From Escherichia phage humlepung, in the sequence record MN850564.1: a stretch of 64,000 nt of DNA; one strand, 5' to 3'. The notes beneath the pieces are model-generated. The model was given only the letters and a program-made list of their open reading frames with translations. It did no database searches and was not told where the DNA came from. This document shows, piece after piece, positions 1-25,906 of the stretch. Position numbers and translations under genes: made by a program. Positions within the stretch are counted from its first letter, which is position 1, and each line of letters opens with the position of its first letter.

Positions 1-199
1 CAGGAGCTTTTAAGGCTATGTCAAAGGCTCTTACAAGGCTTTTACATGGTCTTAACAGAGATTTAACAATTTCTTAACAATCCCTACATAGTTATGCTTT
101 TAAGGCACTTGTTAGAGACTTGTTAGCCCCTTGTTAAATCTCTGTTAAGACCATGTAAAAGCCTTGTAAGAGCCTTTGACATAGCCTTAAAAGCTCCTG
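1..199. repeat. Perfect 69-bp inverted repeat (arms 1-69 and 131-199, 61-bp spacer); may extend beyond window start
   Basis: Reverse complement of 131-199 equals 1-69 exactly when read by eye. Confidence 0.8.
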
Positions 200-8967: not shown

Positions 8968-10383
8968 ATGAGCGAATTATTTAAACATGCGCACCTTCAT
9001 GCAGGTCGAACTGAAAATGGTGCTGTAAACCATACTTCATCAATGTCTGCTCTTGTAGACTTTTACAAAGCTGCTGGTTCGAGCCGTAGCAATGTAGAAA
9101 TCTTACCAGACCTGTTCTACAAAGCTTTGCGTGAGGATGTTGATGTTGCAGTTCGTATTTTACTGCATATGCGAGATGTACGAGAAGGTATGGGTGAGCG
9201 TAAAGCTTTCCGAACTGTTTTACTTAAAGCAATTGAAGATAAGATTTTAGAACCTACACAGGTTCTTCGCATTATGGATAAGATTGCAGAACTTGGTCGT
9301 TTTGATGACTTCAAAATCTTCGTAGGTACTCGTTTTGAGACAGATGCCTTCAAACATTTAGAAGCAGCATTACTAGACCCTGCAACAGCAGGTTTGGCGG
9401 CTAAGTGGTTACCACGAGTCAAACCACGTCATAAGCAGTTTGTAAAACGTTTCTGCAAGTTTGCCAACTTGAGTGAGAAAGAGTACCGCACACTGTTGTC
9501 TGCACTATCTGATACAGTTGAGCAAAAAATCTCTGCTAATGAGTTTGGTAAGATTGACTACAGTAAGATTCCTTCACTTGCTGCTGCACGTTACCAAAAA
9601 CTGTTTAACCGTAAAGATGGAGAGCGTTACAAAGCTTACATCGAGTCCTTATCAAAAGGTGAGACTAAGATTAACGCTGGTGCTGTTTACCCATACGATG
9701 TGATTAAATCTGTCAAGTATGGTAATGCAGATGTTGCTAATGAGCAGTGGAAAGCACTACCAAACTGGATGGCAGAAGGTGAAAACATCTTGTGTATGTC
9801 TGATGTATCAAGTTCAATGTCTTGGGTGAATTTTGGCTCCATTACTGCTCTGGATATTGGTGTATCACTTGCCTTGTATGTAGCAGAACGCAATACAGGT
9901 TGCTTTAAGAATGAGTTAATGGTTTATTCAACAAACCCTCACTTCATCGAACTGAGTGGTGATTTACGAAACCGTCATCGTCAGGTGATGCGACACGTTG
10001 AATATGGCTCAACTAACTTACAAGCAGCTTTTGACCGCATTCTTGAAACAGGTAAAAGAAACAACTTGACTCAGAAAGATATGCCAAGTAAGCTTATCAT
10101 CTTCTCCGATATGGAGTTCAATCAGGTTGATGGAGCTAACGGTCGTACAAACTTTGAAGCAATTCAGAGTAAGTACAAAAAAGCTGGATATGAGATGCCA
10201 CAACTGGTATTCTGGTACTTAGCAAACCGTAATGGTACTTGCGAAGTATCTGTTAAGGATAACGGTGTAGCAATGGTATCAGGGTTCTCTCCAGCCACTT
10301 TAAAAGCTCTGCTTGGTGGTGAGAAGTTTGACCCAATCAGTGTAATGCTCAAAGCAGTAATGATTGACCGTTATATCTGGTAA
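8968..10383 (+). CDS. Ro60/TROVE-like protein with C-terminal von Willebrand factor A domain (DUF2828-like N-terminus by recollection)
   Basis: MIDAS-like DVSSSMS...T...IIFSDMEFN resembling Ro60 vWA (DVSASM / FTDCETN); N-terminal TENGA...S..ALVDFY motif. Confidence 0.6.
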   Translation: MSELFKHAHLHAGRTENGAVNHTSSMSALVDFYKAAGSSRSNVEILPDLFYKALREDVDVAVRILLHMRDVREGMGERKAFRTVLLKAIEDKILEPTQVLRIMDKIAELGRFDDFKIFVGTRFETDAFKHLEAALLDPATAGLAAKWLPRVKPRHKQFVKRFCKFANLSEKEYRTLLSALSDTVEQKISANEFGKIDYSKIPSLAAARYQKLFNRKDGERYKAYIESLSKGETKINAGAVYPYDVIKSVKYGNADVANEQWKALPNWMAEGENILCMSDVSSSMSWVNFGSITALDIGVSLALYVAERNTGCFKNELMVYSTNPHFIELSGDLRNRHRQVMRHVEYGSTNLQAAFDRILETGKRNNLTQKDMPSKLIIFSDMEFNQVDGANGRTNFEAIQSKYKKAGYEMPQLVFWYLANRNGTCEVSVKDNGVAMVSGFSPATLKALLGGEKFDPISVMLKAVMIDRYIW

Positions 10384-10402
10384 AAAGTTTTAAAAAGGGT
10401 AT

Positions 10403-10431
10403 TGACAATGTGTTTAATACCCTTTAATATG
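10403..10431 (+). promoter_or_regulatory. Sigma70-like promoter TTGACA-17-TAATAT inside inverted repeat AAGGGTATT/AATACCCTT
   Basis: Exact -35 consensus, 17-nt spacer, TAATAT -10; upstream of tRNA array. Confidence 0.6.
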
Positions 10432-10548
10432 TTCTACATAGAAGCGAAATGAGAGCTTTTCTAAGATACTGAAAAATATTTTAAAAAAGTTCTTGACAAC
10501 CACTAAAAAATAATGTTAAAGTGGTTACATAGAGTTTGAAAAGTTTAT

Positions 10549-10625
10549 CTCTGTTTAGCTCAGCTTGGTAGAGCGTTCCGTTTGGGGCGGTAAGGCCGGA
10601 GGTTCAAGTCCTCCAACAGAGACCA
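10549..10625 (+). tRNA. tRNA-Pro (anticodon TGG)
   Basis: 7-bp acceptor ctctgtt/aacagag, D-arm gctc/gagc, T-loop TTCAAGT, encoded CCA. Confidence 0.75.
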
Positions 10626-10632
10626 AATTAAT

Positions 10633-10710
10633 GTTCCAGTAGACAAAATGGTAAAGTCACCACTCTTTCAAAGTGGATATTTGAGGGTTCAAATCCCTTC
10701 TGGAACGCCA
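10633..10710 (+). tRNA. tRNA-Glu (anticodon TTC)
   Basis: Acceptor gttccag/ctggaac, anticodon loop cTTTCaa, T-loop TTCAAAT, CCA. Confidence 0.7.
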
Positions 10711-10715
10711 GTTTT

Positions 10716-10791
10716 GACAGAAGACCAATTACAGCAAACTTAATCTTATTCATCTGAAGGTAAATCGGACAAAGAAGAGATTTGGTCTGGT
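10716..10791 (+). repeat. Structured repeat element copy a (5' GACAGAAGACCA ... 3' TGGTCTGGTC)
   Basis: Member of four-copy family with conserved CAGAAGACC...TACAGCAA...GGTCTGG and covarying flanks. Confidence 0.5.
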
Positions 10792-10801
10792 CATTAAGAA
10801 T

Positions 10802-10878
10802 TGCGGGTATAGAGAAAGGGCGTCTCACATGTCTCATTAGCATGGTATCGGCAGGTTCGACTCCTGCACCCGCCTCCA
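10802..10878 (+). tRNA. tRNA with CAT anticodon (Met or Ile2)
   Basis: Anticodon stem catgt/gcatg, loop cTCATta, T-loop TTCGACT, CCA; 1:72 mismatch. Confidence 0.6.
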
Positions 10879-10882
10879 ATTT

Positions 10883-10946
10883 TGCAGAAGACCGTATTCA
10901 GCAACAAAATACTTTTTGCGGATAAAAGAAAAAACACGGTCTGGCA
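10883..10946 (+). repeat. Structured repeat element copy b (5' TGCAGAAGACCGT ... 3' ACGGTCTGGCA)
   Basis: Same family; flank covariation tGC/GCa. Confidence 0.5.
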
Positions 10947-10955
10947 ATGTATTAA

Positions 10956-11029
10956 GGTTAGGAAGCACATAAGGTATGTGCGGTCGCCTGTTAAGCGAAT
11001 GGCACAGGGTTCGAATCCCTGACTAACCG
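10956..11029 (+). tRNA. tRNA-Asn (anticodon GTT)
   Basis: Anticodon loop ctGTTaa, T-arm caggg-TTCGAAT-ccctg, acceptor 6/7 paired; no encoded CCA. Confidence 0.65.
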
Positions 11030-11040
11030 CAAAATTAAAT

Positions 11041-11128
11041 GTGTCGTTATCCCGTAGATGGTAGCGGTGGGGACTGTAAATCCCTTGTCATTGAGACTCG
11101 GTAGGTTCGACTCCTACACGGCACACCA
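11041..11128 (+). tRNA. tRNA-Tyr (anticodon GTA), type II with long variable arm
   Basis: 85 nt, acceptor gtgtcgt/acggcac, loop ctGTAaa, T-loop TTCGACT, CCA. Confidence 0.7.
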
Positions 11129-11133
11129 ATAAA

Positions 11134-11210
11134 GGCTATGTAGTTTAACTGGAGAAAATACTCCCCTGTCACGGGAGATGATGTGAGTTCAAGTCTCATC
11201 GTAGCCGCCA
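11134..11210 (+). tRNA. tRNA-Asp (anticodon GTC)
   Basis: Acceptor ggctatg/cgtagcc, loop ctGTCac, T-loop TTCAAGT, CCA. Confidence 0.7.
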
Positions 11211-11237
11211 ATTTTGAGAGGGCTATTTAGCCCCTCC

Positions 11238-11272
11238 CTTAAAGAGTTCTTACGAGTATTCTTTAAGGGAGC
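11238..11272 (+). repeat. Hairpin CCCTTAAAG-(agTTCTTACGAGtatt)-CTTTAAGGG
   Basis: 9-bp perfect stem; loop motif TTCTTACGAG recurs at 14277-14286. Confidence 0.5.
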
Positions 11273-11348
11273 AGAAGACCAAATACAGCAAGAATGTATG
11301 AAATTTCAAGCCAATTTAATTTTGAAAATTTAAAACTTGGTCTGGCTC
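11269..11348 (+). repeat. Structured repeat element copy c (5' GAGCAGAAGACCAA ... 3' TTGGTCTGGCTC)
   Basis: Same family; flank covariation GAGC/GCTC. Confidence 0.5.
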
Positions 11349-11354
11349 AACAAA

Positions 11355-11493
11355 TTTACAGAAGGCCGTTTACAGCAAAACTTAAACAATCTATTTCTCC
11401 GGTAAAGAAAAGGCGAAGGTTCGATTCCTTCACTCGGCAGATGTCGAGTTGGTGTAATGGTAGCACTTAAGATGATAAACAACGGTCTGGTAA
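11355..11493 (+). ncRNA. Candidate structured ncRNA (element copy d): terminal stem TTACAGAAGGCCGTT/AACGGTCTGGTAA enclosing tRNA-like T-arm and D-arm hairpins
   Basis: Internal gaagg-TTCGATT-ccttc hairpin with T-loop consensus, acceptor-like hairpin, D-arm-like gtgtAATGGTAgcac; no complete tRNA fold. Confidence 0.3.
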
Positions 11494-11639
11494 TTACCTT
11501 TGTAGATAAGTTATTAAGCTTACTTGTGAGTATGCGACCACAAAGGGTGAATGGGTAAATTCTAGATTTAAACCCAAAAAGGCACATCGCTACAGACCTT
11601 AAGCAAGTCTGGGTAGCTTATCTACAAAGATAATTTAAT

Positions 11640-11715
11640 GGAAGTGTAGCAGAATGGTGATGCGGCAGACTTTTAATCTGACAGGCGATGGGTTCGAATC
11701 CCTCCACTTCTACCA
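11640..11715 (+). tRNA. tRNA-Lys (anticodon TTT)
   Basis: Acceptor ggaagtg/cacttct, loop cTTTTaa, T-loop TTCGAAT, CCA. Confidence 0.65.
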
Positions 11716-11719
11716 ATAT

Positions 11720-11796
11720 GGTTCAGTCGCAGATAAGGTAATGCAAGGGTCTCATAAGCCCTATGAATGTGGGTTCGATTCCCATCTGAACCTCCA
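11720..11796 (+). tRNA. tRNA with CAT anticodon (Met or Ile2), second copy
   Basis: Perfect acceptor ggttcag/ctgaacc, loop cTCATaa, T-arm gtggg-TTCGATT-cccat, CCA. Confidence 0.65.
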
Positions 11797-11797
11797 A

Positions 11798-11873
11798 GCT
11801 GGTATAGTTAAGAAGGTTATAACACTCCCCTGATAAGGGAACATCGGTGGTTCGATTCCACCTACCAGTACCA
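11798..11873 (+). tRNA. tRNA-Ile (anticodon GAT)
   Basis: Loop ctGATaa, T-arm ggtgg-TTCGATT-ccacc, CCA. Confidence 0.65.
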
Positions 11874-11888
11874 ATTTCAATAAAGTTG

Positions 11889-11917
11889 TTGACATTGAGA
11901 TGTGACTACTTTATAGT
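11889..11917 (+). promoter_or_regulatory. Sigma70-like promoter TTGACA-17-TATAGT inside the tRNA region
   Basis: Exact -35, 17-nt spacer, TATAGT -10. Confidence 0.55.
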
Positions 11918-12121
11918 AACCTTAGTTTTCGTTGCGTAGCGTCTATTTTGCAAATTTAAAATAAATGCAAACGACAATGTTTTTCTGGCAGTAGCTTGAT
12001 AGGCTAAACACCAGTGAGGTCTTCCAATCCCTCATCAAAGAATTTGGCGTACTCGCCCACGGTATGATTAATAAGGTGGGCATCTTTAAGGGCTTTCTAA
12101 GAGAGTCTTTAAAGATAATTA

Positions 12122-12203
12122 CGGGGCGTATCTCAGCGGTCTTCTAAACCGCCGTTAACCGAGTAAGTGGAGTATGCGGGTTCGAGTCCTGCCGCCTCGA
12201 CCA
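12122..12203 (+). tRNA. Atypical tRNA-like gene, anticodon stem-loop gcggt-cTTCTaa-accgc (TCT, Arg-like), no recognisable D-arm, 23-nt extra segment
   Basis: 7-bp acceptor cggggcg/cgcctcg, T-arm gcggg-TTCGAGT-cctgc, CCA; only 7 nt between acceptor and anticodon stem. Confidence 0.4.
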
Positions 12204-12346
12204 ATTTAGTTAGCAGATTACTTAGACGACCTTAGCGGGTCTTCCTGTAGGGAGGTGGTCTGTATCTCATGTTTTCCAGAACATGTAAATAATCTGAGAA
12301 GGGGCTTTACAGTGTTGAGATAATACGGTAAGCTTCGAATTATAGT

Positions 12347-12429
12347 ATGGGACGATATTAAGACTCTAAGGCATGAGCAACGGCTTCCAACACCGTTTCA
12401 AAGGGGTTCAACTCCTCCGTCCCATGCCA
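12347..12429 (+). tRNA. Atypical tRNA-like gene, anticodon loop compatible with CCA (Trp) closed by a C-A pair, or 9-nt loop
   Basis: Perfect acceptor atgggac/gtcccat plus CCA, T-loop TTCAACT; D-region irregular. Confidence 0.35.
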
Positions 12430-12442
12430 AAGTCTTATTAGG

Positions 12443-12530
12443 GGTAGGTAGCGGCTAATGGTAGCCAAACTGTCTTGAAAACAGTTGCCACTGTAGAGAT
12501 ACGGTGAGGGTTCGACTCCTTTACTTACCG
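12443..12530 (+). tRNA. tRNA-Ser (anticodon TGA), type II
   Basis: 88 nt, stem actgt/acagt with loop cTTGAaa, long variable arm, T-loop TTCGACT. Confidence 0.65.
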
Positions 12531-12787
12531 CCTAATAAGATTTAAAGCCAAGCTTCATTCGGATGTTGCTTTGGTATACCGCGTGTATTGTTGTACGCAC
12601 TGATAAAGCACCTAGTAGGTGTCACGGAGAAGAGATAATATCAAGCTCTCCAAAGGTTCTAGTCACCGGATTAAACAAGACTATGCAAAGACCTTTTTAG
12701 GTCTTTTTAGAGGGCTTCTAAGGTTATTACAGCTTGTTGTGGAACCTTGTTGCTTAGGTTCTTAGAAGTTCTCTAAAAAGATTTAAT

Positions 12788-12865
12788 GGGAGATTGACGG
12801 TAATTGGTAAACCTACCATCCTTAGAAGTTGGTGTTTGAGGGTTCGAATCCCTTGTCTCCTACCA
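12788..12865 (+). tRNA. tRNA with TAG anticodon (Leu-type anticodon but short, type-I length)
   Basis: Acceptor gggagat/gtctcct with G-U pairs, loop ctTAGaa, T-arm gaggg-TTCGAAT-ccctt, CCA. Confidence 0.5.
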
Positions 12866-12872
12866 AATTAAT

Positions 12873-12948
12873 GCAGGTGTAGCAAAATGGTTATGCGGCT
12901 GACTCTTAATCAGTAAGACGATGGGTTCAATTCCCTCCACCTGTACCA
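12873..12948 (+). tRNA. tRNA-Lys (anticodon CTT)
   Basis: Stem gctga/tcagt, loop ctCTTaa, T-loop TTCAATT, CCA. Confidence 0.55.
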
Positions 12949-12954
12949 GACATT

Positions 12955-13030
12955 GGGGTCATAGTTTATATGGTTAAAATTCGAGTTTTGCAAACTTGGG
13001 AACTGAGTTCAATTCTCAGTGACTCCACCA
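12955..13030 (+). tRNA. tRNA-Ala (anticodon TGC)
   Basis: G3:U70 wobble pair in acceptor (Ala identity element), loop ttTGCaa, T-arm ctgag-TTCAATT-ctcag, CCA. Confidence 0.75.
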
Positions 13031-13036
13031 ATTAGT

Positions 13037-13111
13037 GCATCCATAGTTTAAACGGGAAAATTACAGTCTTCCAAACTGAGGTTGAGGGTTCGATTCCCTC
13101 TGGATGCTCCA
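13037..13111 (+). tRNA. tRNA-Gly (anticodon TCC)
   Basis: Perfect acceptor gcatcca/tggatgc, loop ctTCCaa, T-arm gaggg-TTCGATT-ccctc, CCA. Confidence 0.7.
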
Positions 13112-13117
13112 AACAAT

Positions 13118-13194
13118 GCTGCTTTCGTATAATTGGCTATTACACATCCCTTGTAAGGATGGAAATGCAGGTTCGAGTCCTGTGAGCAGCACCA
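13118..13194 (+). tRNA. tRNA-Thr (anticodon TGT)
   Basis: Perfect anticodon stem catcc/ggatg, loop ctTGTaa, T-loop TTCGAGT, CCA. Confidence 0.75.
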
Positions 13195-13199
13195 ATTCA

Positions 13200-13283
13200 G
13201 AGGTCAAGTGAAAGACCGCTGGTGTCAACTGAAGACCGTAACAAATTCCACGGAGTTGAGTTAGCGGCACAACTTCAGACCTC
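13200..13283 (+). repeat. Stem element AGAGGTC...GACCTCT enclosing a GAAGACCGTAAC motif
   Basis: 7-bp terminal inverted repeat; internal CTGAAGACCGTAACAAA resembles the 5' arm of elements a-d. Confidence 0.4.
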
Positions 13284-13289
13284 TTTCAC

Positions 13290-13364
13290 ACTCGCTTAGT
13301 TTATATGGTAAAACACCACCCTTACAAGATGAAGAAAAAGGTTCAAGTCCTTTAGTGAGTACCA
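13290..13364 (+). tRNA. tRNA-Val (anticodon TAC), tentative isotype
   Basis: Acceptor actcgct/agtgagt, loop cTTACaa, perfect T-arm aaagg-TTCAAGT-ccttt, CCA; anticodon stem has mismatches. Confidence 0.55.
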
Positions 13365-13365
13365 T

Positions 13366-13443
13366 GTTCCAGTATCCCAATTGGCAGAGGATGCAAGCTC
13401 AAACCTTGTATTAGTGACGGTTCGAATCCGTCTTGGAACACCA
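13366..13443 (+). tRNA. tRNA with CAA anticodon (Leu-type anticodon, type-I length)
   Basis: Acceptor gttccag/ttggaac, stem gcaag/cttgt, loop ctCAAac, T-arm gacgg-TTCGAAT-ccgtc, CCA. Confidence 0.55.
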
Positions 13444-13462
13444 ATTTAAAGAGGCTATTTAG

Positions 13463-14020
13463 ATGAGATATTTGAAGTATGCTTCATGGATTTTCCTAGC
13501 TTTACTAGAGCCATTTGCAGCAACCCTAGCAGTCATCTTAGCACCTTTCGTAGTTCCATTCTACAGTGAGAAGAAAGGACACTTACCTTTCGGGTTCAGA
13601 TGGATGGAGACATATGACAACCCAATTGATGGTGATGAAGGTCACGTTAAAAGATGGGCTAATATTAGATGGATTGGTAAACTAGGTGTCTACATGCAAA
13701 GAGTTGGATGGCTCTGGAGAAACAAAGCTTATAACTTCTCTTACCATGTATTAGGAAGAGATGTAAAAGATGTTACTAAGTGGAAAGGTAATATCAACGT
13801 AAGTTCTAACCCTGAAGATAATCAGACTGGTTATCTCCTAATGTGGAACAGGAATGCTTGGGGATTATTCGCTTTTATCCCATCAATTAAAATCTTTGGT
13901 AAACAATTTTACTGGAGAATTTATATTGGATGGAAACTAAAAAGTGTTGTCCCAGAAGAAAGAGCATTCTCAAGGGAAAGAGTTATGTTGGCATTCTTTA
14001 TTCATCCACTGAGAAAGTAA
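13463..14020 (+). CDS. hypothetical membrane protein (185 aa, Trp-rich) encoded inside the tRNA array
   Basis: ATG with AAAGAGG RBS; N-terminal hydrophobic segment. Confidence 0.55.
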   Translation: MRYLKYASWIFLALLEPFAATLAVILAPFVVPFYSEKKGHLPFGFRWMETYDNPIDGDEGHVKRWANIRWIGKLGVYMQRVGWLWRNKAYNFSYHVLGRDVKDVTKWKGNINVSSNPEDNQTGYLLMWNRNAWGLFAFIPSIKIFGKQFYWRIYIGWKLKSVVPEERAFSRERVMLAFFIHPLRK

Positions 14021-14028
14021 AGATTTAA

Positions 14029-14104
14029 AGGGGATTAGTTTACAAGGTTAAAACCTCGGTCTTTGAAATCGAAGAAGTTGGTTCAATTCCAACATCCCCC
14101 GCCA
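14029..14104 (+). tRNA. tRNA-Gln (anticodon TTG)
   Basis: Loop ctTTGaa, perfect T-arm gttgg-TTCAATT-ccaac, CCA; 1:72 mismatch. Confidence 0.6.
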
Positions 14105-14106
14105 AT

Positions 14107-14185
14107 GCTCCATTACTCCAATTGGCAGAGAGGCCAGACTTAAAATCTGTGTTATGTATCGGTTCGAATCCGATATGGAGTACCA
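14107..14185 (+). tRNA. tRNA with TAA anticodon (Leu-type anticodon, type-I length)
   Basis: Loop cTTAAaa, T-arm atcgg-TTCGAAT-ccgat, CCA; D-arm resembles the CAA tRNA. Confidence 0.5.
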
Positions 14186-14190
14186 AATTT

Positions 14191-14266
14191 AGCGGTATAG
14201 CATAACTGGCAATGCAGCAGTCTCTGAAGCTGTCTTATTAAGGTTCAAATCCTTATGCCGCTGCCA
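14191..14266 (+). tRNA. tRNA-Gln (anticodon CTG), tentative
   Basis: Acceptor agcggta/tgccgct, D-stem gcat/atgc, loop ctCTGaa, T-arm taagg-TTCAAAT-cctta, CCA. Confidence 0.55.
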
Positions 14267-14267
14267 C

Positions 14268-14294
14268 TTCTAAGGATTCTTACGAGAGTCCTTA
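14268..14294 (+). repeat. Hairpin with loop motif TTCTTACGAG (second copy)
   Basis: aaggaTTCTTACGAGagtcctt; motif shared with 11250-11259. Confidence 0.45.
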
Positions 14295-14297
14295 AAT

Positions 14298-14373
14298 GTG
14301 GCCTTATCATAAATGGTAATGACCCATGCTGTGAACATGGTCTATACGGGTTCAAATCCCGTAGGTCACCCCA
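14298..14373 (+). tRNA. tRNA-His (anticodon GTG)
   Basis: Perfect anticodon stem ccatg/catgg, loop ctGTGaa, T-arm acggg-TTCAAAT-cccgt, CCA. Confidence 0.7.
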
Positions 14374-14379
14374 ATTTAT

Positions 14380-14455
14380 AGTCCAAGTAGCTTATATGGT
14401 TAAAGCGCGTGTCTGAAAAACATGAGAAGAGGGTTCAAATCCCACTGGACTACCA
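14380..14455 (+). tRNA. tRNA-Phe (anticodon GAA)
   Basis: D-stem gctt/aagc, loop ctGAAaa, T-loop TTCAAAT, CCA; acceptor register uncertain by 1 nt. Confidence 0.6.
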
Positions 14456-14471
14456 ATTTCAAAGGTGCTTA

Positions 14472-15206
14472 ATGAAAGAGATGACAGAACAAGGTAAGGA
14501 GATTTTTAATCTCTTAAAAACCGGTAAAGGGTTTTCTAACCCACTTATTACTGGTGCAGCAGTTCTCGGTGGAACCGTAGCTGCCTCTACATCACTTGTA
14601 AGCTCTATTAGCTCTGTAACAGACCCTACAATGAAGGAGAAGCTTGTTGCTGCTGGACTTACAACAGTCCTTCTAAACAGCTTTACAACAATCCTGACAA
14701 GCACTACAGCAACCACTAAGACCCTAACAGACTACGGTCAAAAGTCTATTGATGAGTTTTCATCACGTATGCAGGTAGCAAAGGGATATTCCAATGTTAT
14801 GGGTGCAGCAGGAGAACAAGTTGGTTGTACACCATTCAGTGGTATTATGGGTGTTGCTACAGAGTATGGTCAAAAAGCTATTGACATGATTAACAGTACA
14901 CTAGATAGTGTTAATGGTGTGTTAAGTGACTTACAAGACGCTATTGATGAGGGTCTTGATACTGTTTCTGATTTAGCTAATCAGGCTGTTAGTAAGATTA
15001 ATGAAGGTATTTCAAAGATTACAGCTTATGCAGATGAAGTTGTGCAGATGATTGAAGAAGAAGCTGCCCTTATTGCAGAGTACCTTAAAACGAATATCAA
15101 TGGGTTCTTAGCAGGTATCTTACCAGACTGGTTTGATGATGCTTGTAAAACTGGTGTAATTGATGCTATTGCAACACCAGAAATGAAGAACGCATTACAG
15201 AAATAA
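14472..15206 (+). CDS. hypothetical protein (244 aa, Ala/Thr/Ser-rich)
   Basis: ATG at 14472 with AAAGG RBS; the track start at 14409 would overlap tRNA-Phe. Confidence 0.5.
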   Translation: MKEMTEQGKEIFNLLKTGKGFSNPLITGAAVLGGTVAASTSLVSSISSVTDPTMKEKLVAAGLTTVLLNSFTTILTSTTATTKTLTDYGQKSIDEFSSRMQVAKGYSNVMGAAGEQVGCTPFSGIMGVATEYGQKAIDMINSTLDSVNGVLSDLQDAIDEGLDTVSDLANQAVSKINEGISKITAYADEVVQMIEEEAALIAEYLKTNINGFLAGILPDWFDDACKTGVIDAIATPEMKNALQK

Positions 15207-15207
15207 T

Positions 15208-15300
15208 GGAAGATTAACCCTAAAAGGTAAGGGAGCAGTTTGCTAAACTGCCAGTAGCTGAGAAATCGGTGTACCAGTTCAAGTCTGGTATCTTCCTCCA
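15208..15300 (+). tRNA. tRNA-Ser (anticodon GCT), type II
   Basis: Perfect acceptor ggaagat/atcttcc, stem gcagt/actgc, loop ttGCTaa, long variable arm, CCA. Confidence 0.7.
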
Positions 15301-15304
15301 ATTT

Positions 15305-15380
15305 GAATCCGTGACAGAAATGGCTATGTGCCTGTCTGCAAAACAGGTTTATAAGGGTTCGAGTCCCTTCGGATTCTCCA
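15305..15380 (+). tRNA. tRNA-Cys (anticodon GCA)
   Basis: Perfect acceptor gaatccg/cggattc, stem cctgt/acagg, loop ctGCAaa, T-arm aaggg-TTCGAGT-ccctt, CCA. Confidence 0.75.
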
Positions 15381-15416
15381 AGTTATTTTACTCTCTCTCA
15401 ATTAAAATAATAATAA

Positions 15417-15478
15417 TGCCCTGCTATAAGTATTCTTCCTTTCGCTACCGAAGAGTATTTTTAGACAGGGCTTTTTTA
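15417..15478 (+). terminator. Long imperfect hairpin (gccctg...cagggc) followed by TTTTTT
   Basis: Inverted repeat plus T-run after the tRNA array. Confidence 0.45.
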
Positions 15479-15542
15479 CAGAGTTATACTTTATAGGAAG
15501 ACTTATACAGTATGTCTCTGACGTACATTGTGGTTTCTCCTT

Positions 15543-15566
15543 GACGGTCTCTGTGCCGTCTTTTTT
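15543..15566 (+). terminator. Rho-independent terminator gacggtctctgtgccgtc + TTTTTT
   Basis: 5-bp GC-rich stem, 8-nt loop, T-run. Confidence 0.5.
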
Positions 15567-15602
15567 AAGGAGAAACATGATTAATTATTTGGAGAAAACA
15601 TA

Positions 15603-15803
15603 ATGAGTGAGACCATTTATAAAGAACTTTATGAAGCTAATAAGAAGCTAGAGTTTATGCAGAATACTATCATGGCAATTGCAGATAGATTATCTGTAGC
15701 AACAGGTATAGATATTAAAGAAGCATCTATGGATGCACTTCTTGATGCTGTTGATGCAAAGTTCGAAGTTAAGAAAGAAGAGACTGCGACAGACTCTGAA
15801 TAA
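15603..15803 (+). CDS. hypothetical small acidic protein (66 aa) upstream of terminase
   Basis: ATG with GGAG RBS. Confidence 0.4.
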   Translation: MSETIYKELYEANKKLEFMQNTIMAIADRLSVATGIDIKEASMDALLDAVDAKFEVKKEETATDSE

Positions 15804-15824
15804 TTCTATTTGCGGAGGCGCTTA

Positions 15825-17426
15825 ATGGACTTAAATGCTGTTAAGCAGAAGCGAGTGGAAGATGTTAGGAAAGTCCTAGCTGGAGAGTTGGGGCTTTCTG
15901 ATGAAGTAAAAGAAATTATCAAATCATTCGGTAAAGACCCCTCTAAATTCCTTCCAACTCAAATTCTGACTTTATTAAGATACACACCAGACCAAGTTAG
16001 GCTTATCTTCAAATTGATGACTGATAAGAACTATGTAGCCCCTCAGCCGGGTTCTCAAGAGGTCTTTTTAAACACTAATGCTGACTTGGTTCTTTATGGT
16101 GGTGCTGCTGGTGCTGGTAAAACTGCTGCATTGTTAATGGACTCTTTAAGATTTATTGAAGACCCTAACTATAATGCTGTATATTTCCGTCGAAATACAA
16201 CACAGTTACAAGGTGGTTTATGGCCTGCTGCAAAGAAACTATTTGGTAAGTTTGGTGGGATTCCCCATGAGCAGAAAATGACTATCACATTCCCTTCTGG
16301 GGCGACTATCAAGTTTACCTATCTAGAACTTGAAAAGCACGCTGAAGGCCATCAGGGTATTGAATACTCAGCTATTTACTTTGACGAAGGTACACACTTC
16401 TCTGCTTCACAGATTTCATACCTACAAACCCGTCTACGTTCTGGTGCTGAAGGTGATTCATACATGAAGATTTCCATGAACCCAGATAGAGACCACTTTA
16501 TTTACGATTGGGTAGAACCATTCTTAGATGAAGAAGGTTACCCAGACCCTGAAAAGTGTGGTCGTATTCGTTGGTATGTAATGAATGATGGTGTGATGGT
16601 TTCTGATTGGGAGAGAGACAAGATTCTTGAAATGTTCCCTCTTGAGATTCCTCAAACATATACATTCATCTCTGGTACGATTGATGATAACCCAATTCTT
16701 GACTTCTTAGAACCAAAATACCGTGGTAAGTTGGAAAACAACACCCCTGTAAACGTTGCAAGACTTCGTTTCGGTAACTGGAAGGCTCGTGCAGAAGGTT
16801 CAAACTATTGGCAAAGACAATGGTGTGAAATTGTTGATTCACTCCCAGAAGATGTATTTGATGTTAGAGCATGGGACTTAGCAGCAACTTTACCATCGGA
16901 GATTAACCCTAATCCAGACTGGACAGCAGGTGTTAAGATGGGTAAATCTAAAAAAGACGGTTGCTATTATATCATTGATGTAGTAAGATTTAGAGATAGA
17001 CCCTCTGGAGTCGAAACACAAATTAATTTGACTGCTGAAAGTGACGGTAAGCGAACTGGTATTTTTATCCCTCAAGACCCAGGCGCTGCTGGTAAATCCT
17101 ACGCAACATCCCTCATCAGGAAACTTGCCGAGAAAGGTTATCGAGCAAGAGCCAAACCAACAAATAAAGATAAAGTTACCCGCTTTGCGGGATTTTCTGC
17201 TGCTTCTGAAGCTGGACTTGTAAAAGTCTTGAGAGGTAGTTGGAATGAAGCTTACTTTCAAGAGCTTGAAGGCTTTTGTGGTGATGGCAAAACTAAAGAT
17301 GACCAAGTGGATGCTACCAGTGATGCTTTCAACAGTCTTAACGAAGTTAAATTATTCAAGCCACCATCAATGGGTGCTCACACAGATTTAGTGAGAGGAA
17401 ACCCATATGAGGGGCTTAGACGTTGA
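15825..17426 (+). CDS. terL: terminase large subunit
   Basis: Walker A LYGGAAGAGKT; start moved to ATG 15825 with GGAGG RBS (track start 15810 is TTG). Confidence 0.85.
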   Translation: MDLNAVKQKRVEDVRKVLAGELGLSDEVKEIIKSFGKDPSKFLPTQILTLLRYTPDQVRLIFKLMTDKNYVAPQPGSQEVFLNTNADLVLYGGAAGAGKTAALLMDSLRFIEDPNYNAVYFRRNTTQLQGGLWPAAKKLFGKFGGIPHEQKMTITFPSGATIKFTYLELEKHAEGHQGIEYSAIYFDEGTHFSASQISYLQTRLRSGAEGDSYMKISMNPDRDHFIYDWVEPFLDEEGYPDPEKCGRIRWYVMNDGVMVSDWERDKILEMFPLEIPQTYTFISGTIDDNPILDFLEPKYRGKLENNTPVNVARLRFGNWKARAEGSNYWQRQWCEIVDSLPEDVFDVRAWDLAATLPSEINPNPDWTAGVKMGKSKKDGCYYIIDVVRFRDRPSGVETQINLTAESDGKRTGIFIPQDPGAAGKSYATSLIRKLAEKGYRARAKPTNKDKVTRFAGFSAASEAGLVKVLRGSWNEAYFQELEGFCGDGKTKDDQVDATSDAFNSLNEVKLFKPPSMGAHTDLVRGNPYEGLRR

Positions 17427-24553: not shown

Positions 24554-25906
24554 ATGTGGAATCCAATTGTTAATGTAGATATTACATTGAACACCGCAGG
24601 AACTACAAGAGAAGGTTTTGGTTTGCCACTATTCTTAGCTTCAACAGATAACTTTGAAGAAAGAGTACGTGGTTACACTTCCTTAACTGAAGTTGCTGAA
24701 GATTTCGATGAGAATACTGCTGCATATAAGGCTGCTAAACAACTTTGGAGTCAGACTCCTAAAGTAACTCAGCTTTATATCGGTAGACGCGCTATGCAGT
24801 ACACTGTATCAATTCCTGATGCCGTTACCGAAAGTACAGACTACTCAATTACTGTAGCTGTTGGCGGTGGAATTTCTCAACCATACCAGTACACAGCACA
24901 AGATTCAGACACTGCTGAGGTAGTGTTGCAACAGTTTAAAACACAGATTGAAGCTGACCCAACAATCAAAGATAAGGTTTCTGTGAATGTAACTGGTAGC
25001 AATGGCTCTGCCACAATGATTATTACCAAAGCTGGTGATAATGACTTTGTGAAAGTAACAACCACAGCACAGACTGTATATATTGCAAGTACAACTGCTG
25101 ATACAGCAGCAACTGCTCTGGCAGCTATAGAAGCTTACTCTACTGACTGGTATTTCATTGCAGCAGAAGACAGAACTCAACAGTTTGTCTTAGCAATGGC
25201 TTCTGAGATTCAGGCTCGTAAGAAAATCTTCTTTACGGCTAACTCCGATGTAACAGCCCTACAAGGTACAGAATTAGCCAGTGCAAATGATGTTCCAGCA
25301 CAGCTTGCTAAGAATATGTACACTCGTACAGTTTGCTTGTGGCATCACGCAGCAGCAGAAGATTATCCAGAGATGGCATACATTGCTTATGGTGCTCCAT
25401 ATGATGCAGGCTCAATTGCTTGGGGTAATGCTCAGCTAACTGGCGTAGCAGCTTCTCTACAACCACCTAATCAGAGACCTCTGACAAGTATTCAGAAGTC
25501 TGCTTTAGATGTACGTCACTGTAACTTTATTGACCTTGATGGTGGTGTTCCAGTGGTTCGTAGAGGGATTACTTCTGGTGGGGAATGGATTGATATCGTC
25601 CGTGGTGTTGACTGGTTAGAATCAGACCTGAAAACTTCTCTGAGAGACTTGCTAATTAACCAGAAGGGTGGTAAGATTACTTATGATGATACTGGTATTA
25701 CCCGTATTCGTCAAGTCATTGAAACCTCTCTGCAAAGAGCAGTCAACAGAAACTTCCTGTCATCTTACACAGTTAATGTTCCTAAAGCCTCTCAAGTTGC
25801 TTTAGCAGACAAGAAAGCACGTATCCTGAAAGATGTTACCTTCGCAGGTATCTTAGCAGGGGCTATCTTGGATGTTGACTTGAAAGGTACAGTGGCTTAC
25901 GAATAA
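24554..25906 (+). CDS. putative tail sheath protein
   Basis: 450 aa immediately upstream of a small tube-sized gene and a terminator; assignment by position only. Confidence 0.4.
   Translation: MWNPIVNVDITLNTAGTTREGFGLPLFLASTDNFEERVRGYTSLTEVAEDFDENTAAYKAAKQLWSQTPKVTQLYIGRRAMQYTVSIPDAVTESTDYSITVAVGGGISQPYQYTAQDSDTAEVVLQQFKTQIEADPTIKDKVSVNVTGSNGSATMIITKAGDNDFVKVTTTAQTVYIASTTADTAATALAAIEAYSTDWYFIAAEDRTQQFVLAMASEIQARKKIFFTANSDVTALQGTELASANDVPAQLAKNMYTRTVCLWHHAAAEDYPEMAYIAYGAPYDAGSIAWGNAQLTGVAASLQPPNQRPLTSIQKSALDVRHCNFIDLDGGVPVVRRGITSGGEWIDIVRGVDWLESDLKTSLRDLLINQKGGKITYDDTGITRIRQVIETSLQRAVNRNFLSSYTVNVPKASQVALADKKARILKDVTFAGILAGAILDVDLKGTVAYE

What the first reader, a model, noticed from the sequence alone, without database searches (positions are those of the whole stretch)
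11238..14294. Recurrent hairpins with loop motif TTCTTACGAG / CTTCTAAGRG
Hairpins at 11238-11272 and 14268-14294 share the decamer TTCTTACGAG in the loop. Related CTTTCTAAGAGAG / GGCTTCTAAGG / TTCTTAGAAG units occur at 12091-12115 and 12700-12775, all in tRNA spacers, which suggests a common processing or binding site.
Basis: seen in the sequence. Interest (0 to 1): 0.45.

Follow-up and report, generated by a model that had tools for sequence, protein, structure and literature searches.

The report
Conserved RNA hairpins punctuating phage tRNA array
The flagged repeats are real, conserved RNA stem-loops that sit at junctions in the tRNA and small-RNA gene array of a FelixO1-like phage, most likely marking or protecting RNA ends during processing; this is an ordinary kind of element, but its neighbours include unannotated Y-RNA-like and tmRNA-like genes.

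Summary
The window is a Felixounavirus. The four hairpins exist at the stated coordinates and are among the strongest inverted repeats in the tRNA region.

**Observation.** TTCTTACGAG occurs 3 times against 0.08 expected. It is not a loop: it is a UACG tetraloop plus three closing pairs on each side.

**Family.** HP1, HP2 and HP4 are true paralogs. HP3 is a different, longer element.

**RNA level.**
- They fold better on the tRNA strand, through G·U pairs.
- Their stems covary across genera.
- Their positions are fixed, 3-10 nt upstream of a tRNA 5' end, or abutting a Y-like RNA for HP1.
- The loop drifts (UACG, UUCG, UAUA, UAA), so a motif-specific binding site is unlikely.
- None has a U-tract, none matches Rfam, and no further copy occurs in the 64 kb.

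**Best reading (about 0.5).** They are structural punctuation of a polycistronic precursor: end-protecting or insulating hairpins, or RNase III-type sites.

**Context, unannotated in the records examined.**
- A Ro60 homolog sits upstream of the array.
- Four Y-RNA-like units follow, one a YrlA-type permuted tRNA.
- A tmRNA-like tag-encoding RNA (ANDNVFLAVA) carries HP2 at its predicted 3' end.

The parts
11220..11233 (+). Short G+C-rich hairpin (GGGCU-AUUU-AGCCC) directly 5' of HP1
   Evidence: MFE fold. Kept with a G-C to G.U change and loop changes in relatives. A counterpart GGACU-UUUU-AGUCC is present in L160.
11234..11271 (+). HP1: 16 pairs plus one U.U mismatch, UACG tetraloop at 11251-11254. 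It lies 23 nt after tRNA-Asp and directly abuts Y-like unit U3.
   Evidence: One pair runs A-U / G.U / G-C across relatives. The L160 homolog has a C-G to A-U compensatory change and a UUCG loop. A hairpin also occupies this position in L158.
12082..12116 (+). HP2: 16-bp hairpin with three G.U pairs and a UAA loop. It lies at the predicted 3' end of the tmRNA-like RNA, 5 nt upstream of the atypical tRNA-Arg(UCU).
   Evidence: -18.7 kcal/mol on the + strand versus -6.3 on the - strand. Pair-preserving changes occur in Mordin and L012. An alternative 62-nt hairpin allele occupies the same site in FelixO1. Erwinia phage L035 has a UACG-capped hairpin at the same position.
12697..12786 (+). HP3: long stem of about 21-29 bp with a branched apex. 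It presents the conserved loop UUGUUGCUU (12747-12755) and ends 1-5 nt upstream of tRNA-Leu(UAG).
   Evidence: z = -6.0. The stem sequence is largely replaced with pairing kept in Suspvirus, Mooglevirus and L160, while the loop word UUGUUGCU is kept.
14263..14302 (+). HP4: inner 10-bp hairpin 14271-14294 with UACG loop 14281-14284. The outer 5 pairs use the 3' end of tRNA-Gln(CUG) plus one spacer base, and the 5' end of tRNA-His. It lies 3 nt upstream of tRNA-His.
   Evidence: z = -6.3. A-U to G.U and U.G to U-A changes occur; one relative has a perfect 18-bp stem. In L160 it stays upstream of tRNA-His although the upstream tRNA is Leu(UAA).
11921..12081 (+). Context: tmRNA-like tag-encoding RNA downstream of promoter 11889-11917. 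Tag frame 11967-11996 = ANDNVFLAVA, followed by two stop codons. HP2 follows it.
   Evidence: Promoter. Weak Rfam tmRNA hits. A six-phage alignment shows 8 compensatory pairs and synonymous tag changes.
12122..12203 (+). Context: atypical tRNA-like gene with a UCU anticodon loop, no D stem, G3.U70, A73 and an encoded CCA, immediately after HP2
   Evidence: Rfam tRNA 31.7 bits; ARAGORN misses it. Compensatory change in the anticodon stem. Fold.
11273..11490 (+). Context: Y-RNA-like units U3 (11273-11345) and U4 (11360-11490, a YrlA-type permuted tRNA cloverleaf) directly after HP1
8968..10383 (+). Context: Ro60 (TROVE + vWA) homolog gene at the head of the array
   Evidence: Pfam DUF2828 + DUF7788. 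AF2 model pLDDT 89. Foldseek top 12 hits are all Ro60/TROVE structures, TM up to 0.69.

Best explanation
The hairpins are cis-acting RNA structures in the long transcripts that cover the phage's tRNA and small-RNA array. They act as structural punctuation at junctions.

**Proposed mechanism**
- Each forms a very stable stem-loop a few nucleotides upstream of the next RNA's 5' end. HP1 and HP4 carry a UNCG-type tetraloop.
- After RNase P cuts at the downstream tRNA, the hairpin becomes the 3'-terminal stem-loop of the upstream RNA. For HP2 that RNA is the tmRNA-like RNA; for HP3 it is the Ser-to-Leu spacer RNA.
- In that position it shields the upstream RNA from 3'-to-5' exonucleases.
- It also keeps the leader from mispairing with the tRNA.
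- With stems of 16-21 bp or more, the hairpins could equally be entry sites for a double-strand-specific nuclease (RNase III).

**Shown**
- RNA-level structure, strand specificity, conservation with compensatory change, and fixed junction positions.

**Inferred**
- Transcription through the hairpins, RNase P-generated ends, the protective or insulating effect, and any RNase III cleavage.
For: **Structure**
- They are among the strongest hairpins in the window.
- The + strand is favoured through G.U pairs: HP2 -18.7 versus -6.3 kcal/mol, HP3 -40.2 versus -28.0.

**Selection on pairing**
- HP1: A-U / G.U / G-C at one pair, and C-G to A-U in L160.
- HP2: C-G to U.G and G.U to G-C in Mordin.
- HP3: the stem is almost wholly rewritten but still paired in L017, L034 and L160.
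- HP4: changes keep pairing.

**Position**
- All 20-plus Felixouna-, Moogle- and Suspvirus loci carry them at the same sites.
- They are also present in L160, whose Ro60 is 63% identical. The HP2 site is occupied in the Kolesnikvirus L035.
- They lie 3-10 nt upstream of a tRNA 5' end: HP2 to 12122, HP3 to 12788, HP4 to 14298, and the L035 hairpin to tRNA-Leu.
- HP4 stays with tRNA-His when the upstream tRNA differs.

**Loop**
- The loop varies within stable tetraloops while the stem is kept. This points to structure rather than sequence as the constraint.
Against: - There are no RNA-end or expression data, so the mechanism is inference only.
- HP4 has no upstream non-tRNA cargo to protect. There a 3' hairpin would hinder trimming of the upstream tRNA.
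- HP1 is followed by a Y-like RNA, not a tRNA.
- The apex TTCTTACGAG is invariant in the Felixouna-, Moogle- and Suspvirus loci examined. It also occurs in the Erwinia phage hairpin. That is more conservation than structure alone requires.
- The stems are shorter than classic two-turn RNase III substrates.
Confidence: 0.5

Rival explanations
1. The hairpins are sequence-specific binding sites for a protein that recognises the apex. The phage Ro60 homolog is one candidate, because ACGAG resembles the CGAA / GNCGAAN0-1G motif of Y RNAs. A tRNA-processing factor is another.
For: - The apex TTCTTACGAG is invariant in HP1 and HP4 in the Felixouna-, Moogle- and Suspvirus loci examined, and it recurs in Erwinia phage L035.
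- The Ro60 homolog is encoded at the head of the array.
- HP1 always abuts Y-like unit U3.
- L158 has a second hairpin in the HP1 region with apex AACGAAG.
- Thermus phage Ro60 binds hairpin RNAs that carry CGAA (PMC12135203).
Against: - The loop changes to UUCG (HP1) and UAUA (HP4) in L160. HP2 has a UAA loop.
- The family member in Kolesnikvirus L035 occurs where no Ro60-like gene lies upstream of the array, within the 10 kb fetched.
- In the fold the motif is largely base-paired.
Confidence: 0.15
2. They are RNase III processing sites that cut the polycistronic precursor into sub-clusters, as in the phage T7 early region and the T4 tRNA cluster.
For: - The stems are long, near-perfect double-stranded RNA: 16-17 pairs in HP1 and HP2, 21 or more in HP3, and 18 in one HP4 variant.
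- They form a paralogous family at junctions.
- T7 RNase III sites are likewise a paralogous hairpin family, and RNase III takes part in T4 tRNA precursor processing (own knowledge).
Against: - No cleavage data exist.
- The inner stem of HP4 is only 10 bp in most genomes.
- RNase III determinants cannot be scored without a known cleavage site.
Confidence: 0.2
3. They are DNA-level elements: cruciform or palindromic sites for a DNA-binding protein or homing endonuclease, or recombination hotspots that shuffle tRNA modules.
For: - Homology breakpoints among relatives fall exactly at both edges of HP2.
- Two hairpin alleles combine freely with two alleles of the downstream tRNA.
- HNH endonuclease genes are inserted in this region in relatives.
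Against: - G.U pairs make the structures strand-asymmetric. On the - strand they become C.A mismatches.
- Substitutions run through G.U intermediates.
- The mapped HNH insertion (L011) lies inside the 5' end of tRNA-Leu, not in the hairpin.
Confidence: 0.07
4. They are intrinsic terminators or attenuators, or else functionless relics of decayed tRNA anticodon arms.
For: - They are stable hairpins in non-coding DNA.
- CTTCTAA in HP3 and HP4 equals the tRNA-Arg(UCU) anticodon loop. CUUACGA resembles a Val(UAC) loop (sequence).
Against: - No U-tract follows any of them, and the terminator scan reports none at these sites.
- The hairpins themselves score as no tRNA or other Rfam family; only chance-level microRNA matches far below threshold overlap HP3 and HP4.
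- Compensatory changes and conservation across genera argue against neutral relics.
Confidence: 0.06

Closest known systems
Intercistronic C(UUCG)G / UNCG-capped hairpins of phage T4 transcripts (Tuerk et al. 1988; own knowledge)
   Same: Both are extra-stable tetraloop hairpins in phage intergenic RNA. Here the loop is UACG, or UUCG in L160. Stability and end protection is the presumed role in both.
   Different: Here the closing pair is U-A rather than C-G. The stems are much longer (10-17 bp). The elements sit in a tRNA and small-RNA array rather than between protein-coding genes.
RNase III processing hairpins of the phage T7 early region, and the RNase III step in T4 tRNA-cluster processing (own knowledge)
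   Same: Both are a paralogous family of hairpins at junctions of a polycistronic phage transcript. After cleavage the hairpin stays as a stabilising 3' end.
   Different: No cleavage has been shown here. There is no conserved internal loop like that of the T7 sites, except the 3x3 loop in HP4. The stems are shorter.
Y RNA / Yrl hairpins bound by Ro60 (PMC4201824; PMC12135203)
   Same: They are encoded next to a Ro60 homolog on the same strand, and ACGAG resembles CGAA.
   Different: The defining 5'/3' stem with a large internal loop and GNCGAAN0-1G is absent from the hairpins. The neighbouring U1-U4 units fit the Y RNA description far better.
Rho-independent terminators
   Same: Both are stable stem-loops in non-coding RNA.
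   Different: The hairpins have no U-tract, the stems are A+U-rich, and a tRNA follows immediately.
Promoter-early stem-loops (PeSLs) that flank shuffled cassettes in T4-type phages (own knowledge)
   Same: Both are repeated hairpins at the borders of modules that recombine among relatives.
   Different: There is no promoter inside HP1-HP4. A promoter-in-hairpin does occur elsewhere, at 10394-10425.

Membership tests
Intrinsic (Rho-independent) terminator | G+C-rich stem followed by a run of U | tested here: not met
   The terminator scan of 10000-16000 lists none at the four sites. The tails are GCAGAAG, AAUUAC, UUUAAUGG and AAAUGUGG.
UNCG tetraloop hairpin | 4-nt loop of the form UNCG closing a helix | tested here: met
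   HP1 and HP4 have a UACG loop in the MFE and centroid folds. HP1 in L160 has UUCG. Not met for HP2 (UAA) or for HP4 in L160 (UAUA). The canonical C-G closing pair is absent (U-A).
RNase III substrate | About 20 bp or more of mostly Watson-Crick double-stranded RNA | tested here: inconclusive
   Stem lengths are 16-17 pairs (HP1, HP2), 21-29 (HP3) and 10+5 (HP4), or 18 in one variant.
RNase III substrate | Staggered cleavage by RNase III | not testable with these tools
   This needs an in vitro digest or rnc-dependent end mapping.
tRNA or tRNA fragment | Cloverleaf or T-arm recognised by ARAGORN or Rfam RF00005 | tested here: not met
   There is no tRNA hit over the hairpins.
Any curated Rfam family | Score at or above the family's gathering threshold | tested here: not met
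   Only chance-level microRNA hits overlap HP3 and HP4: MIR473 at 32.7 bits against a threshold of 52, and mir-4659 at 24.7 against 92.
Y RNA (YrlA/YrlB type), applied to the hairpins | Stem formed by the 5' and 3' ends, with GNCGAAN0-1G and a large internal loop or tRNA-like domain | tested here: not met
   The hairpins are simple stem-loops. ACGAG lies at the apex and varies.
Y RNA (YrlA type), applied to neighbouring unit U4 at 11360-11490 | V, T, closed acceptor-like (AS) and D arms in that order inside a 5'/3' stem | tested here: met
   The consensus fold shows these arms. The T and D arms are near-invariant. The AS stem has three different sequences, all paired, with 3 compensatory pairs.
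Y RNA (YrlA type), applied to neighbouring unit U4 at 11360-11490 | Encoded within about 4 kb of a Ro60 gene on the same strand | tested here: met
   The Ro60 homolog is at 8968-10383 on the + strand. U4 lies about 1 kb downstream.
Y RNA (YrlA type), applied to neighbouring unit U4 at 11360-11490 | GNCGAAN0-1G motif near the 5' end; binding to Ro60 | tested here: not met
   The 5' strand reads AGAAGRCCGUUUACAGCAA, with no exact motif. Rfam gives no Y RNA hit. Binding cannot be tested here.
Dispersed mobile repeat (MITE- or REP-like) | Many copies at variable positions | tested here: not met
   There are only three full-length copies, always at the same syntenic sites.

The most novel reading that the evidence does not exclude
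The hairpins may be boundary modules of an undescribed phage small-RNA toolkit.
- HP2 would be the 3'-terminal stem-loop of a tmRNA-derived, tag-encoding RNA (ANDNVFLAVA) that lacks its own tRNA-like domain. That RNA is conserved in Ounavirinae, in a Kuttervirus and in a Klebsiella phage.
- HP1 would be the 5' module of a set of Ro60-associated Y-like RNAs.
- The hairpins would then be needed to release and stabilise RNAs with which the phage manipulates host trans-translation and RNA quality control.
Probability: 0.25. Interest if true: 0.75.

Novelty: new member of a known kind. Interest (0 to 1): 0.42.

Why it matters
**The hairpins themselves.** They are one more example of stable intergenic stem-loops that punctuate phage polycistronic RNAs. 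That is useful for annotation, and for engineering FelixO1-like therapeutic phages without breaking tRNA maturation.

**What they flag.** The 'tRNA spacers' of this well-known phage group are not spacers.
- They encode four Y-RNA-like units next to a structurally confirmed Ro60 homolog. This turns a published guess about phage Bas63 gp130 into concrete candidate RNAs.
- They encode a conserved tmRNA-like, tag-encoding RNA.
- They encode atypical tRNA-like genes.

All of these can be tested with standard RNA-end mapping and pull-downs.

Tried and rejected
- **Genome-wide motif.** nhmmer with the family profile finds only the three known copies in 64 kb. 8-mer enrichment shows nothing related.
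- **Terminators.** None at the four sites.
- **Rfam.** Only tRNAs and chance-level hits.
- **IMG/VR scan for TTCTTACGAGNNTNCTT.** Only FelixO1-like contigs form the hairpin; the rest are chance matches.
- **Pairing partner for the apex.** No complement lies in the array. The only 8-nt complement is inside a gene at 25215.
- **PeSL-like idea.** The stem AAAGGGTA/TACCCTTT of the promoter hairpin at 10394 recurs in the alternative HP2 allele, but nowhere else in the window.
- **Ro60-binding idea for the hairpins.** It is weakened by loop drift and by the family member in the Erwinia phage, whose fetched locus lacks a Ro60 gene.
- **Single consensus structure for the three paralogs.** The MAFFT alignment puts HP2 one column out of register, so RNAalifold recovers only 8 pairs. 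Per-hairpin ortholog counts were used instead.
- **A complete tmRNA.** ARAGORN finds none in the window or in FelixO1 20-36 kb. This is despite a published remark that FelixO1 encodes ssrA (PMC4392139).

Full report
**What the window is.** The region is 96-98% identical to many Felixounavirus genomes, for example Escherichia phage allfine. ARAGORN finds 24 tRNA genes on the + strand between 10549 and 15380. The finding lies inside this array.

**Checking the observation.**
- The five longest inverted repeats in 10400-15500 are the four reported hairpins and one further element (11492-11635). The hairpins are HP1 11234-11271, HP2 12082-12116, HP3 12697-12786 and HP4 14263-14302.
- Folded as + strand RNA they give z-scores of -4.5 to -6.3, and no shuffle folds as well. 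They rank near the top of a 46-nt sliding fold of the whole 64 kb.
- TTCTTACGAG occurs exactly three times against 0.08 expected. Two copies sit at the hairpin apexes.
- The description needs correcting. The loop is the tetraloop UACG, and the rest of the decamer is stem.
- HP2 is a true paralog of HP1 and HP4. Its 3' arm AGAGTCTTTAAA differs from HP4's AGAGTCCTTAAA at one base, and nhmmer gives E = 1e-8.
- HP3 shares only the stem word CTTCTAAG. That word is lost in a relative whose HP3 stem has a different sequence.

**RNA or DNA?** The evidence points to RNA on the tRNA strand.
- The + strand folds are stronger because of G.U pairs. For HP2 the values are -18.7 versus -6.3 kcal/mol, and for HP3 -40.2 versus -28.0.
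- Substitutions among about 25 related genomes mostly keep pairing and pass through G.U intermediates.
  - HP1 shows A-U / G.U / G-C at one pair.
  - HP4 shows A-U to G.U and U.G to U-A.
  - HP2 in Citrobacter phage Mordin shows C-G to U.G and G.U to G-C.
- The HP3 stem is largely rewritten but still paired in Suspvirus, Mooglevirus and L160.
- In L160, whose Ro60 is 63% identical, HP1 carries a C-G to A-U compensatory change and a UUCG loop. HP4 there has a UAUA loop on an unchanged stem.
- Selection therefore acts on the stem and on a stable loop, not on the decamer as such.

**Distribution.**
- A profile of the family finds exactly three copies per genome, at the same syntenic sites, in all Felixouna-, Moogle- and Suspvirus loci and in L160.
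- No further copy occurs in the 64 kb, and no related word is enriched.
- In Erwinia phage FIfi106 (Kolesnikvirus) a hairpin with the same apex, GGTTCTTACGAGAGTC, sits at the HP2 position. The family is therefore older than the genus.
- At the HP2 site FelixO1 and some others carry a different 62-nt hairpin.
- The two hairpin alleles combine freely with two alleles of the downstream tRNA, and homology breaks fall exactly at the hairpin edges.

**Position relative to neighbouring RNAs.**
- HP2 ends 5 nt before the tRNA-like gene at 12122.
- HP3 ends 1-5 nt before tRNA-Leu(UAG) at 12788.
- HP4 ends 3 nt before tRNA-His at 14298.
- The Erwinia hairpin ends about 10 nt before a tRNA-Leu.
- HP4 stays with tRNA-His in L160, where the upstream tRNA is different.
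- HP1 is not followed by a tRNA. In every genome it abuts a Y-like unit.
- None of the four is followed by a U-tract, and the scan places no promoter or terminator at them.

**What else is in the 'spacers'.**
- **Ro60 homolog.** The gene at 8968-10383 (DUF2828 + DUF7788) gives a confident AF2 model (pLDDT 89). Its top 12 Foldseek hits are all Ro60/TROVE structures aligned over their full length, including a Thermus phage Ro60. This fits a remark about Bas63 gp130 in PMC11482910. I did not check directly that Bas63 gp130 is the ortholog of this gene.
- **Y-like units.** Four units of the form AGAAGRCC-N-WCAGCAA...GGTCTGG occur in the window: 10719-10790, 10886-10944, 11273-11345 and 11360-11490. 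They are on the + strand only. Up to four occur in each related locus (all four in most), and none in the Erwinia phage locus (L035) or the other unrelated loci fetched by then.
- **YrlA-type unit.** The fourth unit folds as a permuted tRNA cloverleaf with V, T, closed acceptor-like and D arms. The acceptor-like stem has three unrelated sequences in three genera, all paired. This is the YrlA architecture described in PMC4201824.
- **More distant relatives.** Syntenic phages whose Ro60 is 54-57% identical carry the same kind of units, with different stems and the same C(A/U)GCAA word.
- **tmRNA-like RNA.** Downstream of a near-consensus promoter (11889-11917) lies a tmRNA-like reading frame, GCA AAC GAC ... 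GCT TGA TAG, encoding ANDNVFLAVA.
  - Rfam tmRNA hits are weak.
  - The frame is conserved, with synonymous or tag-internal changes, in Mordin, L160, the Erwinia phage (ANDAQFLAVA), a Kuttervirus (ANDNTFLAVA) and Klebsiella phage BUCT541 (ANEEMYLAVA).
  - The surrounding helices show 8 compensatory pairs.
  - HP2 is the last helix of this RNA before the next tRNA.
  - No tRNA-like domain of its own is evident. Published phage ssrA lists do not include these phages (PMC4131195).

**Most likely function of the hairpins.**
- The data fit structural punctuation of a polycistronic precursor. Each hairpin is a very stable stem-loop just upstream of the next RNA's 5' end.
- After RNase P cleavage it would cap the 3' end of the upstream RNA and keep the leader from mispairing. 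It could alternatively serve as an RNase III entry site.
- These steps are inferred; I put the confidence at about 0.5.
- The sequence-specific binding-site reading (0.15) is weakened by loop drift. It is also weakened by the family member in the Erwinia phage, whose fetched locus has no Ro60 gene.
- DNA-level roles (0.07) are weakened by the strand asymmetry.
- Terminators and neutral relics (0.06) are weakened by the missing U-tracts and by the compensatory changes.

**Comparison with known elements.**
- The closest precedents are the UNCG-capped intercistronic hairpins of T4 and the paralogous RNase III hairpins of T7 (own knowledge).
- The elements are a new member of that general kind, not a new kind.

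**Verdict.**
- The 'processing site' idea is plausible, and the 'motif-specific binding site' idea is not supported.
- Interest in the hairpins alone is modest. The surrounding unannotated Y-like and tmRNA-like RNAs raise it.

Noticed in passing
window 8968-10383 (+): The gene heading the tRNA array encodes a Ro60 (TROVE + vWA) homolog. The AF2 model has pLDDT 89, and the top 12 PDB matches are all Ro60 structures. Sequence databases name it only DUF2828 or 'RNA-binding protein'. More than 2,400 relatives were found; the named ones are from phages.
   Followed up: yes
window 10719-10790, 10886-10944, 11273-11345, 11360-11490 (+): Four Y-RNA-like units share a 5' AGAAGRCC-N-WCAGCAA word and a 3' GGUCUGG word. 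The fourth is a YrlA-type permuted tRNA cloverleaf with a covarying closed acceptor stem. Up to four occur in each related FelixO1-like locus (all four in most), and none in the Erwinia phage locus or the other unrelated loci fetched by then. Distant relatives keep the CAGCAA word with different stems.
   Followed up: yes
window 11889-12081 (+); L034, L160, L035, L036, L037: A promoter is followed by a tmRNA-like, tag-encoding RNA (ANDNVFLAVA plus two stops at 11967-12002) with no evident tRNA-like domain. The frame, the helices (8 compensatory pairs) and the ...LAVA ending are conserved in Ounavirinae, in a Kuttervirus and in Klebsiella phage BUCT541. It is unannotated in the records where it was checked.
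   Followed up: partly
window 12122-12203 (+): An atypical tRNA-like gene that ARAGORN misses (Rfam tRNA 31.7 bits). It has a UCU anticodon loop, no D stem, a 23-nt variable region, G3.U70 with A73 (the alanine identity pattern, own knowledge; its acceptor resembles the E. coli tmRNA acceptor, compared with a sequence recalled from memory) and an encoded CCA. The anticodon stem shows compensatory changes. In about half of the relatives a canonical tRNA-Arg(UCU) takes its place.
   Followed up: partly
window 12349-12432 (+): A cryptic tRNA-Trp(CCA)-like gene, called by neither ARAGORN nor Rfam. It has an acceptor stem plus CCA, a T arm, and an anticodon stem that covaries in Mordin (AACGG/CCGTT to GTAAG/CTTAC). 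The last stem pair is a C.A mismatch.
   Followed up: partly
window 11492-11635 (+): A structured RNA closed by a 22-bp stem (z = -4.4). The stem covaries in Mordin. An internal hairpin keeps the loop UUAAGCAAG while its own stem changes.
   Followed up: partly
window 12747-12755 (+) and 10900-10907 (+): The apical loop of HP3, UUGUUGCUU, is conserved across genera while its stem covaries. It is complementary over 8 nt to AGCAACAA in Y-like unit U2. This could be a loop-loop contact or chance.
   Followed up: no
window 14297-14373 (+): The phage tRNA-His has C73, but the base at -1 is U, so G-1 is not encoded. RefSeq marks the FelixO1 copy as a pseudogene.
   Followed up: no
window 10394-10430 (+): The first promoter of the array (TTGACA-17-TAATAT) has its -35 box inside a 12-bp stem-loop, AAAGGGTATTGACA...TAATACCCTTT. 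The same 8-bp stem recurs in the alternative HP2 allele of FelixO1.
   Followed up: partly
window 13195-13289 (+): The Thr-to-Val spacer contains the word GAAGACCGUAAC and complementary segments (for example AGAGGTC/GACCTCT) that suggest a structured RNA; it was not folded. The sequence is conserved in Mordin.
   Followed up: no
L011 spacer Ser-Leu; L033 5031-5516, 6004-6396, 7314-7727: Relatives carry free-standing HNH endonuclease genes inserted between tRNAs. In L011 the insertion lies inside the 5' end of tRNA-Leu(UAG), with that end duplicated.
   Followed up: partly
window 10-55 (+) and 145-190 (-): An identical 46-nt hairpin sequence (TTAAGGCTATGTCAAAGGCTC...) occurs twice in inverted orientation near the start of the window.
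   Followed up: no
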